Below, in pieces: positions 29,052 through 29,476 of a stretch of DNA of 31,782 nucleotides. Made by a program: the position numbers and the translations under genes. The DNA is from a virus. Taxonomy: Duplodnaviria; Heunggongvirae; Uroviricota; Caudoviricetes. Numbering within the stretch: the first letter of the stretch is position 1; every line of letters starts with the position of its first letter. The DNA is taken from the IMG/VR virus record IMGVR_UViG_2645727991_000022; one strand, 5' to 3'. The notes beneath the pieces were generated by a model, which saw only the letters and a program-made list of their open reading frames with translations, was not told the origin of the DNA and ran no database searches.

Positions 29052-29292
29052 TTTTCTCTCTTAGAAAGTAATTTAATTTACAGAATGAAACGTCTACTAT
29101 TAATATAATCCTGGCTGAATATATAGTCTACTATTTTCTTTACACGCTCTTAGCGTGCCTAAAGTCAAATTGAGAAATTATTTAAACGCCAGAAAGCAGT
29201 AAACACTATGAGTATGCCTTCGCTATTAAGATTCAGCATTCAGTTTCAGTGGGAGGGATTACAAGTACAATTTCATTTAAAACCTATCTGAT

Positions 29293-29347
29293 TCACGCCC
29301 CCCACACCTTCGACTTCAACAAACCTACCCATAGTGGGGGGGCGTGA
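29293..29347. other. GC-rich long-loop inverted repeat in divergent intergenic region
   Basis: TCACGCCCCCCAC (29293-29305) and GTGGGGGGGCGTGA (29334-29347) form an ~12-bp G/C-rich stem around a 28-nt loop. No U-tract on either side. Lies between divergent starts at 29051 (-) and 29477 (+). Confidence 0.5.
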
Positions 29348-29476
29348 GGACATAGTGTACTTGATTAAGTAGATTGTGGTAACGTACTGATACTGTTCAA
29401 ATTACTTTTCATAAAATTAGTTTCGCATACCTATCAAGCTATTCATCTTAAACCTTTATTATTACGATATAATTAT

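What the first reader, a model, noticed from the sequence alone, without database searches (positions are those of the whole stretch)
29052..29476. Long divergent intergenic region with a 12-bp G/C-rich inverted repeat
A 425-bp AT-rich spacer separates the divergent starts of the DUF3800-like and HNH genes. It contains a strikingly G/C-rich perfect inverted repeat (TCACGCCCCCCAC ... GTGGGGGGGCGTGA, 29293-29347) around a 28-nt loop, with no U-tract. It could be a regulator binding site, an RNA structure or a recombination site.
Basis: seen in the sequence. Interest (0 to 1): 0.4.

Follow-up and report, generated by a model that had tools for sequence, protein, structure and literature searches.

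The report
Hairpin-plus-promoter head of swappable prophage genes
The G/C-rich palindrome is the hairpin half of a conserved ~100-bp hairpin-plus-promoter-like module that sits in front of interchangeable accessory (probably anti-phage) genes in a family of enterobacterial prophages and marks where those genes are swapped, much like the PeSL cassettes of T4-like phages.

Summary
The repeat is real but not perfect. It has 11 perfect pairs (29293-29303/29337-29347), extended by AC/GT across one bulged G (6 C against 7 G), and a 28-nt loop.

It is not a feature of the divergent DUF3800/HNH spacer as such. It is the 5' half of a ~100-bp element (29281-29389): hairpin, then AGTGTAC, then 18 nt, then TGGTAAAGT (TGGTAACGT in this window).

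I found 36 distinct copies, all in the accessory island next to the small terminase gene of related Enterobacterales prophages, with up to three copies per locus. Every complete copy points the same way as the gene just downstream, and conservation stops right after the -10-like box.

- **Cargo:** the downstream genes differ (HNH-like, 8xMP, uncharacterised membrane proteins).
- **Flanks:** upstream and downstream flanks reassort combinatorially.
- **Hairpin:** it is kept by compensatory substitutions and indels, and part of its loop is invariant.
- **Databases:** no Rfam family matches, and deposited phages and plasmids lack it.

Best reading: a PeSL-like composite cassette head. A sigma-70 promoter would drive the cargo, an upstream insulating hairpin would isolate it, and the shared ~100 bp would serve as a homology patch for cassette exchange. 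Promoter and attenuator activities are inferred, not shown.

The parts
29281..29389 (+). Whole conserved element (cassette head): hairpin plus two promoter-like boxes.
   Evidence: Covariance model R1 matches 29281-29389 at 89.6 bits, E 7e-21. The nhmmer profile matches 29297-29387. It aligns with 35 other distinct copies.
29293..29305 (+). Left arm of the hairpin, TCACGCCCCCCAC (6 C). This is a derived form: the majority form is TCACGCCACACCCAC with two bulged A.
29306..29333 (+). 28-nt loop. Its 3' part AACAAACC-TA-CCCA (29318-29331) is the most conserved stretch of the whole family. Its 5' part varies in length.
   Evidence: Invariant columns A34-C41 and C44-C46 of alignment A1. L072 carries a TTCGAC duplication in the 5' part of the loop.
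29334..29347 (+). Right arm of the hairpin, GTGGGGGGGCGTGA (7 G, one bulged).
   Evidence: Compensatory changes with the left arm across copies.
29354..29360 (+). Box 1, AGTGTAC. It reads as a -35-like TGTACT (29356-29361) on the + strand, or as a -10-like TACACT on the - strand.
   Evidence: A70 and T72 invariant; G71, T74 and A75 at 90% or more in A1. The promoter scan flags this box as a - strand -10 in L016 and as a + strand -35 in L031.
29377..29385 (+). Box 2, TGGTAACGT. The family consensus is TGGTAAAGT, an extended -10-like motif. The window copy has A>C at 29383. Family-wide conservation ends 1-2 nt after this box. The predicted + strand start is about 29390-29392.
   Evidence: G94-G100 nearly invariant. 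The 18-nt spacing to box 1 is kept. The near-identical loci L001 and L003 have TAAAGT.
29477..30214 (+). Cargo gene of this copy: a 245-aa protein with an HNH-like N-terminal motif and no family assignment.
   Evidence: It starts 90 nt after the element.
30227..30253 (+). Canonical intrinsic terminator closing the cassette (7-bp stem GGCCTCT...AGAGGCT plus T8).

Best explanation
The inverted repeat is the hairpin of a composite ~100-bp 'cassette head'. This module precedes each of a set of interchangeable single-gene accessory cassettes in the island between the small terminase gene and the HNH_3/serine-integrase end of a family of lambda-like (gpA-terminase) Enterobacterales prophages.

Proposed working:
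1. The two boxes (TGTACw, 18 nt, TGgTAAAGT) form a sigma-70 promoter with an extended -10. It transcribes the downstream cargo gene antiparallel to the late operon, presumably in the lysogen. In this window the cargo is the HNH-like gene, closed by its own terminator at 30227-30253.
2. The G/C-rich hairpin just upstream (about -45 to -100) forms in transcripts arriving from the preceding co-directional gene. It attenuates or ends them, or stabilises their 3' end. Each cassette is thereby transcriptionally isolated.
3. Because all cassettes share the same ~100 bp, the element acts as a homology patch. General recombination at it swaps, adds or deletes cargo genes between related and unrelated phage backbones.

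Shown here:
- conservation and boundaries of the element;
- its fixed orientation relative to the cargo and to terS;
- stem covariation;
- combinatorial reassortment of both flanks;
- mosaicism inside the element.

Inferred: promoter activity and its strand, attenuator activity of the hairpin, the role of the invariant loop motif, and the recombination mechanism.
For: **Family.** There are 36 distinct copies. Pattern scans of viral, genome and metagenome collections found them, and an nhmmer profile and covariance model confirmed them. Some loci hold up to 3 copies (L020; 2 each in L016 and L059).

**Boundaries.** Conservation begins at the left arm and ends 1-2 nt after TGGTAAAGT.

**Orientation.**
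- Wherever a downstream ORF could be read, it has the element's orientation and starts 6-90 nt after it.
- In 18 of 18 loci that include terS, the element points away from terS/terL and lies about 1.5-4.7 kb from it.

**Cargo** differs: HNH-like, 8xMP (PF24838, E 3.5e-30), and N-terminal transmembrane 'FEWGSVSDW' proteins.

**The element follows neither neighbouring gene.**
- DUF3800 homologues at 70% identity lack it.
- HNH-like homologues at 70-98% keep it behind three different upstream neighbours.
- HNH-like homologues at 43-48% in P2-like prophages lack it.

**Hairpin.**
- It is kept in 15 of 19 copies first examined, with compensatory changes: CACGCC/GGCGTG becomes CACGTC/GACGTG, CACACC/GGTGTG, CATACC/GGTATG or CATGCC/GGCATG, and CCCAC/GTGGG becomes CTCAC/GTGAG.
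- L020 copy 1 has a perfect 15-bp stem; L031 has an extended base.
- On the model-fitted alignment, 91.5% of cells are paired against 85.7% in shuffles (0/500 reach it). Six of 13 pairs show double-sided changes in 22 cells (shuffle mean 5.9, 0/500). Slid controls give 42-71% paired.

**Reassortment.**
- Upstream flank clusters U0, U1 and U2 each combine with three downstream clusters.
- D0 combines with five upstream clusters, and D1 and D2 with four each.
- Linker and spacer variants inside the element are themselves mosaic. Crossovers are therefore spread over the element rather than fixed.

**Promoter and moron layout.**
- The scan tool flags TTTACA-17-TAAAGT with an upstream TG in L031.
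- The window cassette ends in a canonical terminator, giving the promoter-gene-terminator layout of a moron.
- In most contexts with a co-directional upstream gene, no canonical terminator lies between that gene's stop and the element.

**Precedent.** PeSLs of T4-like phages are ~100-bp sigma-70 promoter plus stem-loop cassettes, often polyG/polyC. Promoter and attenuator activity were shown experimentally, and PeSLs mediate shuffling of ORFans (PMC2839356, PMC4122927).
Against: - No transcript, reporter or binding data exist; promoter and attenuator functions are inferred from sequence only.
- In the window copy the boxes score poorly (-35 3/6, -10 TAACGT 3/6). The scan did not flag them.
- The same two boxes read equally well as a - strand promoter (TTTACC-17/18-TACACT, flagged in L016). 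The variation pattern of box 1 fits a - strand -10 rather better than a + strand -35: A70, T72, T74 and A75 are fixed, and changes occur only at hexamer positions 3 and 5.
- The hairpin is a poor intrinsic terminator, with a 21-34-nt loop and no U-tract on either strand.
- In the window and four other flank classes the upstream gene is divergent, so there is nothing to insulate against.
- The loop's 3' half is more conserved than the stem. An insulator role does not explain this.
- Copy number is low (1-3 per prophage). Recombination between copies within one genome is therefore a smaller factor than for PeSLs.
Confidence: 0.55

Rival explanations
1. The two boxes form a - strand promoter (-35 TTTACC, 17-18 nt, -10 TACACT) whose transcript starts at the base of the hairpin (about 29347). 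The hairpin with its conserved loop (UGGGUAGGUUUGUU on that strand) would then be the 5' end of an RNA. That RNA could be a small antisense or regulatory RNA, or a 5' stabilising stem-loop for the divergent gene (here DUF3800) or for transcripts heading towards terS. This could coexist with the + strand promoter as a back-to-back pair.
For: - The scan tool flags TTTACC-17-TACAAT on the - strand of L016.
- Box 1 varies only at hexamer positions 3 and 5 of a - strand -10, and always towards TATAAT (TAAACT, TACAAT, TATACT). T1, A2, A4 and T6 stay fixed.
- A covarying stem with an invariant loop is the usual pattern for antisense RNAs.
- The five 1x1 stem mismatches that are transitions are all C.A/A.C on the + strand, which would be G.U wobbles on the - strand.
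- The - strand fold is more stable in 31 of 36 copies.
- The element's - strand is always the sense strand of the late operon.
Against: - No terminator or other conserved sequence follows the hairpin on the - strand, so no defined small RNA is apparent.
- In most contexts the upstream gene is co-directional with the cargo, so the - strand transcript would only be antisense to an unrelated gene's 3' end.
- This reading does not explain the conserved T and G flanking the TTTACC hexamer (TGG...GT of box 2), nor the strict adjacency and co-orientation of a cargo gene.
- The greater stability of the G-rich strand is expected from G.U pairing alone.
- The wobble count rests on about 4-5 independent events.
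- A nearer - strand promoter-like site exists for DUF3800 (29130-29102).
Confidence: 0.17
2. The hairpin region is a DNA-level binding site for a phage or host regulator placed upstream of the cargo promoter (about -45 to -100). The regulator would recognise either the dyad arms or the invariant AACAAACCnnCCCA motif. It would co-regulate all cassettes, for example keeping them on in the lysogen or off during lytic growth. The G/C runs would set the spacing.
For: - The position upstream of the -35 is typical for class I activators.
- The loop's 3' half is invariant across all complete copies while the stems vary.
- The loop core plus right arm are retained even in L016 copy 2, whose left arm is lost, and in L020 copy 2, whose right arm is itself degraded.
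- G-run and C-run lengths differ between otherwise 97-100% identical loci. Such changes would alter the phasing between the motif and the promoter.
Against: - The arms change by compensatory substitutions and indels that keep pairing rather than sequence. Three copies within one phage (L020) have different arms. A dimeric protein reading the dyad is therefore unlikely.
- The invariant motif has no dyad symmetry and matches no consensus I could recall (IHF, CRP, P2 Ogr TGT-N12-ACA). That check was from memory, not a database test.
- No regulator gene travels with the element.
Confidence: 0.15
3. The hairpin is a structure-specific recombination site: integron-attC-like, or a target of the neighbouring NUMOD4/HNH_3 homing-type endonuclease or the serine recombinase. 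A dedicated enzyme would use it to insert and excise cargo cassettes.
For: - Imperfect hairpins with bulged bases sit at cassette boundaries.
- Flanks reassort.
- A large serine recombinase and an HNH_3 endonuclease gene lie at the distal end of the island in several loci.
Against: - Breakpoints are spread over the element and at both of its edges rather than at one position.
- There is no attC R''/R' consensus (RYYYAAC...GTTRRRY), and no IntI-type integrase in the window or loci examined.
- The element lies 5' of its gene and carries promoter-like boxes, the opposite of integron cassettes.
- The serine recombinase is placed like the prophage integrase, at the ybhA junction in E. coli.
Confidence: 0.06
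4. The palindrome is a chance or neutral feature, or an ordinary bidirectional terminator, with no specific role.
For: - An 11-bp perfect inverted repeat arises in about 1% of shuffled spacers.
- No Rfam family matches.
Against: - The element is conserved across 36 copies with stem covariation.
- It lies between divergent genes here and lacks a U-tract, and its loop is 28 nt, so it is not a canonical terminator.
Confidence: 0.03

Closest known systems
PeSL (promoter-early stem-loop) cassettes of T4-like myoviruses (Arbiol et al. 2010, PMC2839356; Comeau et al. 2014, PMC4122927)
   Same: - Conserved composite of about 100 bp: a sigma-70-type promoter plus a stem-loop rich in G and C runs.
- Intergenic, directly upstream of non-essential, highly variable ORFs clustered in a plastic region.
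- Flanks differ between related phages with junctions inside or at the element.
- Proposed dual role: transcriptional isolation and a homology patch for modular shuffling.
   Different: - No sequence similarity.
- Found in temperate gpA-terminase prophages of Enterobacterales rather than lytic T4-like phages.
- 1-3 copies per genome instead of dozens.
- The stem-loop is always upstream of the -35 and has a long (21-34 nt) loop with an invariant motif. PeSL stem-loops are short and sit at varying positions relative to the boxes.
- No AT-rich UP region.
- Cargo genes are transcribed antiparallel to the late operon.
- Activities are untested here.
Morons of lambdoid phages (Juhala/Hendrix concept: promoter-gene-terminator units; own knowledge, also discussed in PMC2839356)
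   Same: The window cassette has the layout of a promoter-like element, a single gene and a factor-independent terminator (30227-30253). It is inserted antiparallel to the late operon next to the packaging genes.
   Different: Morons are not thought to share conserved flanking sequences or to move by them. Here different cargo genes share the same ~100-bp head, and it marks the exchange junctions.
Integron attC sites / gene cassettes
   Same: Imperfect hairpins with bulged bases at the boundaries of single-gene cassettes, arranged in arrays with varied cargo.
   Different: - attC lies 3' of promoterless ORFs.
- attC has R''/R' core sites and a variable loop.
- attC needs IntI.
- None of these features is found here.
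Linker or boundary sequences of the modular theory of phage evolution (Susskind and Botstein; own knowledge)
   Same: Short conserved sequences between exchangeable modules that would guide homologous recombination.
   Different: That concept concerned functional modules of the core genome, and such linkers have rarely been identified. Here the conserved patch is a defined regulatory-looking element at single-gene accessory cassettes.

Membership tests
PeSL-type composite promoter/stem-loop cassette | Sigma-70-like -35 and -10 boxes with proper spacing directly upstream of the ORF. | tested here: inconclusive
   Two conserved boxes lie 18 nt apart. The consensus TGgTAAAGT is extended -10-like. 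The scan tool flags L031 on the + strand but not the window copy. The same boxes read as a - strand promoter in L016.
PeSL-type composite promoter/stem-loop cassette | Stable stem-loop, often polyG/polyC, within or next to the promoter. | tested here: met
   A 13-17-bp G/C-rich stem is conserved with covariation. It always lies upstream of the -35-like box.
PeSL-type composite promoter/stem-loop cassette | Repeated in a hyperplastic region, in front of variable non-essential ORFs. | tested here: met
   There are 36 copies, all in the island next to terS, with up to 3 per locus. At least four unrelated cargo families occur. Copy number per genome is much lower than for PeSLs.
PeSL-type composite promoter/stem-loop cassette | Indel and replacement junctions between related phages coincide with the element. 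| tested here: met
   Flank clusters reassort combinatorially. Segments inside the element are mosaic.
PeSL-type composite promoter/stem-loop cassette | Demonstrated promoter and terminator/attenuator activity; mini-circle formation. | not testable with these tools
   This needs reporter fusions, Term-seq and inverse PCR.
PeSL-type composite promoter/stem-loop cassette | T4-like lytic phage context with an early-promoter consensus and an AT-rich upstream region. | tested here: not met
   The host elements are integrated gpA/Nu1-terminase prophages with a serine recombinase. The hairpin, not an AT-rich tract, lies upstream of the -35-like box. I therefore file this as an analogue, not a member.
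Intrinsic (Rho-independent) terminator | G/C-rich stem, short loop (about 3-8 nt), U-tract immediately 3'. | tested here: not met
   The stem qualifies. The loop is 28 nt (21-34 across the family), and no T-run follows on either strand.
Integron attC site | R''-L''/L'-R' cores (RYYYAAC...GTTRRRY), position 3' of a promoterless cassette ORF, IntI nearby. | tested here: not met
   The arms are TCACGCC.../...GGCGTGA. The element lies 5' of its gene and carries promoter-like boxes. Only serine recombinase and IS3 transposase genes were seen in flanking loci.
Any described RNA family (Rfam 15) | Score at or above a family's gathering threshold. | tested here: not met
   There were no hits at gathering thresholds over the whole window. 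In 29000-29550 the only hit up to E 10 was a spurious nematode sRNA at 14.9 bits.
Moron (promoter-gene-terminator unit) | Own promoter upstream and a factor-independent terminator downstream of a single accessory gene inside a phage operon region. | tested here: inconclusive
   The terminator is present (30227-30253). The promoter is only predicted. The layout fits, but the conserved shared head is not part of the moron definition.

The most novel reading that the evidence does not exclude
The element is the recognition site of a dedicated cassette-exchange system for prophage defence genes, an integron-like arrangement in temperate phages. The conserved hairpin and its invariant loop would be bound or cut by a phage enzyme. 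One candidate is the NUMOD4/HNH_3 endonuclease that borders the island. The result would be cargo genes captured and swapped at high frequency rather than by occasional homologous recombination. The variable G/C runs could tune either this reaction or promoter output.
Probability: 0.08. Interest if true: 0.75.

Novelty: new variant of a known kind. Interest (0 to 1): 0.5.

Why it matters
Prophage accessory and defence islands turn over quickly, but what guides the exchange of single genes within them is mostly unknown. This element is a concrete, testable candidate for that role.

It is a shared ~100-bp regulatory-looking head that different cargo genes carry. Flanks demonstrably reassort at it, across phage backbones that share as little as about 40% terminase identity.

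If confirmed, it would extend the PeSL principle, in which regulatory cassettes double as recombination linkers, from lytic T4-like phages to temperate phages and their defence hotspots. It would also give a simple sequence handle, the covariance model, for finding new uncharacterised cargo genes. Examples are the 'FEWGSVSDW' membrane proteins and the HNH-like protein.

Tried and rejected
- **Known RNA or tRNA:** Rfam at gathering and E-value thresholds and ARAGORN found nothing.
- **Regulatory element of the DUF3800 gene:** rejected. Loci with 70%-identical DUF3800 genes have an unrelated upstream region with no copy.
- **Element tied to the HNH-like gene family as a whole:** rejected. Homologues at 43-48% identity in P2-like prophages lack it, and most copies precede other genes.
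- **cos site or attP:** rejected. The element occurs up to three times per locus, at varying distances from terS, and far from the integrase.
- **Small protein-coding ORF across the hairpin (29249-29347, 32 aa):** rejected. Run-length and loop indels between near-identical loci break the frame.
- **Canonical terminator and integron attC:** the defining features are not met (see membership test).
- **Pseudoknot between the loop and the post-hairpin linker:** only 4 potential pairs in some copies, and not conserved (by inspection).
- **Strand assignment from fold energies and wobble/mismatch counts:** inconclusive. G-rich strand bias affects the energies, and there are too few independent events.
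- **BLAST of the element against deposited phages and plasmids:** no match. Only 1 of 5426 complete E. coli genomes carries it, with nothing annotated under the match.
- **Literature searches beyond PeSL:** no description of such an element in temperate phages was found.

Full report
**1. Observation**

The window is a lambda-like prophage segment. It carries a gpA-type large terminase and a Nu1-like small terminase, has about 38% G+C, and comes from Enterobacterales.

Coordinates 26.0-30.3 kb form an accessory island:
- a small ORF of unknown function (26021-26335);
- DUF2971, matching PADLOC PDC-S31;
- an unassigned membrane protein;
- DUF3800;
- an HNH-like protein.

The 425-bp spacer 29052-29476 is 34% G+C and separates the DUF3800 start from the start of the 245-aa ORF.

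The inverted repeat is present but not perfect. TCACGCCCCCC (29293-29303) pairs perfectly with GGGGGGCGTGA (29337-29347). The further AC/GT pairs require one bulged G, because the left arm has 6 C and the right arm 7 G. The loop is 28 nt, and no T-run follows on either strand.

The repeat is unlikely by chance:
- 25 of 2000 dinucleotide shuffles of the spacer contain a perfect inverted repeat of 11 bp or more.
- Fold z-scores are -4.0 and -3.0 for the two strands.
- The arm sequence is unique in the window.

**2. What it belongs to**

Two near-identical IMG/VR prophages carry the same spacer with altered runs. L001/L002 has 9 C and 9 G. L003 has TCACGCCACACCCCAC and 7 G.

DUF3800 homologues at 70% identity have a different upstream region and no copy.

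Homologues of the HNH-like protein behave differently:
- At 70-88% identity, in Citrobacter freundii and in read-archive assemblies, they keep the hairpin and the sequence after it. Their divergent neighbours are different.
- At 43-48% identity, in P2-like prophages, they lack it.

I then scanned for the most conserved core (ACAAACC..CCCA..GTG.GGGG) in the viral, genome and metagenome collections. Confirmation came from an nhmmer profile and a covariance model. This gave 36 distinct copies.

Most copies precede genes unrelated to the HNH-like gene:
- 8xMP membrane proteins (PF24838);
- several families of proteins with an N-terminal transmembrane helix and a FEWGSVSDW-type motif. The window ORF 27188-27832 belongs here but has no copy in front of it.

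**3. Anatomy of the element**

The alignment gives this order:
1. Left arm (majority TCACGCCACACCCAC).
2. Loop, with a 5' part of variable length and an invariant 3' part, AACAAACC-nn-CCCA.
3. Right arm (majority GTGGGGGGCGTGA).
4. A variable linker of 6-8 nt.
5. AGTGTAC.
6. A spacer of fixed length.
7. TGGTAAAGT.

Similarity then stops within 1-2 nt. In the window these parts are 29293-29305, 29306-29333, 29334-29347, 29354-29360 and 29377-29385. The window's second box is TGGTAACGT, a single A>C difference from its 97-100% identical relatives.

Every complete copy points the same way as an ORF that starts 6-90 nt downstream. In all 18 loci that include the small terminase gene, the element points away from it and lies about 1.5-4.7 kb from it.

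Some loci carry two or three copies, one per gene (L016, L020, L059). The HNH-like cassette of the window ends in a canonical terminator at 30227-30253. The unit therefore has the layout head, gene, terminator.

**4. The hairpin is under selection**

The stem is kept in 15 of the 19 copies first examined. Its sequence changes in a compensated way:
- CACGCC/GGCGTG becomes CACGTC/GACGTG (L029).
- It becomes CACACC/GGTGTG (L016 group).
- It becomes CATACC/GGTATG (L077).
- It becomes CATGCC/GGCATG (L059 copy 2).
- CCCAC/GTGGG becomes CTCAC/GTGAG in about ten copies.
- L031 extends the base to GGATGCACA/TGTGCATCC.
- L020 copy 1 has a perfect 15-bp stem, TCACGCTACACCTAC/GTAGGTGTAGCGTGA.

That last form suggests the history. 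In the majority form the right arm has lost two T, leaving two bulged A in the left arm. The window form has also lost those A, giving its near-perfect C6/G7 stem.

On the model-fitted alignment:

| Measure | Observed | Control |
|---|---|---|
| Cells paired | 91.5% | 85.7% in column shuffles (0/500 reach it) |
| Pairs with double-sided changes | 6 of 13 | shuffle mean 3.1 (1/500 reach it) |
| Cells with double-sided changes | 22 | shuffle mean 5.9 (0/500 reach it) |
| Cells paired when partners are slid | – | 42-71% |

The alignment was fitted to the structure, which favours it. The raw sequences show the same compensations.

**5. The element is an exchange junction**

I clustered the 400 nt upstream and downstream of each copy.
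- Upstream classes U0, U1 and U2 each occur with three different downstream classes.
- Downstream class D0 (8xMP) occurs with five upstream classes. D1 (HNH-like) and D2 each occur with four.

Inside the element, the linker and spacer variants follow the upstream flank in some copies and the downstream flank in others. For example, L016 copy 1 and L059 copy 1 share GCTTATTGAATTGTAC but have different cargo. L020 copy 2 has the spacer of L036 but the cargo of L037. Crossovers are therefore spread over the element. That pattern fits general homologous recombination on a shared patch, not cutting at one fixed site.

The island also moves between backbones. L003 shares 89-98% identity with the window across the island genes but only 38-42% in terS and terL.

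**6. Mechanism**

The abrupt end of conservation after a TGnTAAAGT motif, the fixed 18-nt spacing to a second box, and the obligatory co-oriented gene just downstream all fit a sigma-70 promoter with an extended -10 that drives the cargo. The scan tool flags this in L031 (TTTACA-17-TAAAGT with TG).

The hairpin lies at about -45 to -100. In most contexts with a co-directional upstream gene, it is the only strong structure between that gene's stop codon and the next promoter. It may therefore attenuate read-through or stabilise the upstream 3' end, as shown for PeSL stem-loops (PMC2839356).

All of this is inference. Several points weaken it:
- The same boxes read as a - strand promoter (TTTACC-17/18-TACACT, flagged in L016). 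Box 1's variation pattern fits a - strand -10 well.
- The hairpin lacks a U-tract and has a long loop.
- The invariant loop motif has no explanation under the insulator model.
- My attempts to assign a strand from fold energy and wobble-type mismatches were inconclusive.

**7. Comparison with known systems**

No Rfam family matches. The element is absent from deposited phage and plasmid records. Among 5426 complete E. coli genomes it occurs in one, in a prophage inserted in ybhA, with nothing annotated under the match.

The closest described system is the PeSL of T4-like phages (PMC2839356, PMC4122927). A PeSL is a ~100-bp promoter plus G/C-run stem-loop cassette in front of variable ORFs, and it mediates modular shuffling.

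The present element works like a PeSL by every comparative criterion I could test, but it is not a member. It has no sequence similarity, sits in a temperate-phage context, occurs at low copy number, and has a fixed hairpin position, a long loop with an invariant motif, and no AT-rich upstream tract. It also fits the moron layout, with the added feature of a shared head. It fails the defining features of intrinsic terminators and of integron attC sites.

**8. Verdict**

It is one instance of a small, apparently undescribed family of hairpin-plus-promoter-like cassette heads, which mark exchange points of accessory, probably defence, genes in a family of enterobacterial prophages.

I rate it a new variant of a known kind, of moderate interest (0.5). 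The function of the hairpin and its loop remains the open question.

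Noticed in passing
window 30657-30738 (and 30566-30590): A cluster of five copies of (C)ATTAGCACAT(A), four direct and one inverted. It includes a perfect 18-bp inverted repeat AAACCATTAGCACATAAT/ATTATGTGCTAATGGTTT (30684-30701/30721-30738), immediately 3' of the - strand ORF 30738-31223. Exact TTAGCACAT occurs nowhere else in the window. A GGGGGG-N11-CCCCC hairpin lies just before it. It looks like a protein-binding array (operator, iteron or cosB-like).
   Followed up: partly
window 29298-29303 and 29336-29342; L002 5816-5870; L003 5816-5870; L064 2553-2659: The homopolymer runs in the two arms differ between otherwise 97-100% identical loci. The window has 6 C and 7 G; L001/L002 has 9 C and 9 G; L003 has CCACACCCC and 7 G; L064 has 9 C and 7 G. 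Both arms lengthened together in L001. This could reflect slippage with selection for pairing, templated repair between the arms, or homopolymer sequencing error.
   Followed up: partly
window 29383: The window copy has TAACGT where its closest relatives and the family consensus have TAAAGT. On either strand reading this single change should weaken the promoter-like box.
   Followed up: no
window 27188-27832; cargo ORFs in L029, L031, L032, L035, L037, L041, L064, L073: A diverse set of 190-240-aa proteins has an N-terminal transmembrane helix followed by a (F)EWGSVSDW-type motif and variable helical C-termini. They are the commonest cargo behind the element and have no Pfam, NCBIfam or PADLOC family. 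They are candidate prophage exclusion or abortive-infection proteins.
   Followed up: partly
L003 1-8840 compared with window 22189-31782: The island genes are 89-98% identical to the window, but the adjacent terS and terL are only 42% and 38% identical. The whole accessory island has therefore moved between different phage backbones.
   Followed up: no
window 29477-30214: The HNH-like ORF has no recognisable Shine-Dalgarno sequence. A perfect TATAAT (29468-29473) lies 3 nt before its ATG. The protein has no Pfam, NCBIfam or PDB sequence match, and its relatives at 43-48% identity sit beside the integrase and CI genes of P2-like prophages.
   Followed up: partly
window 25160-25834: A stand-alone EAL-domain protein (a predicted c-di-GMP phosphodiesterase, PF00563, E 3e-22) is encoded directly upstream of the small terminase gene on the late strand. 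It is conserved at 73-95% identity in many related prophages.
   Followed up: no
L020 517-623 and L059 4787-4894: Two truncated copies sit directly after the stop codon of the homologue of window ORF 26021-26335. They keep the best stems of the family (15-16 bp) and the AGTGTAC box. Box 2 is replaced by a canonical bidirectional terminator. These may be the oldest or 'founder' position of the element at the proximal edge of the island.
   Followed up: no
L016 1824-8427 (Citrobacter freundii CP056907): A two-cassette piece of the island (HNH-like plus 8xMP, each with its element) is bracketed by two IS3-family transposase genes next to a large serine recombinase gene. This suggests secondary mobilisation of the cassettes.
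   Followed up: no
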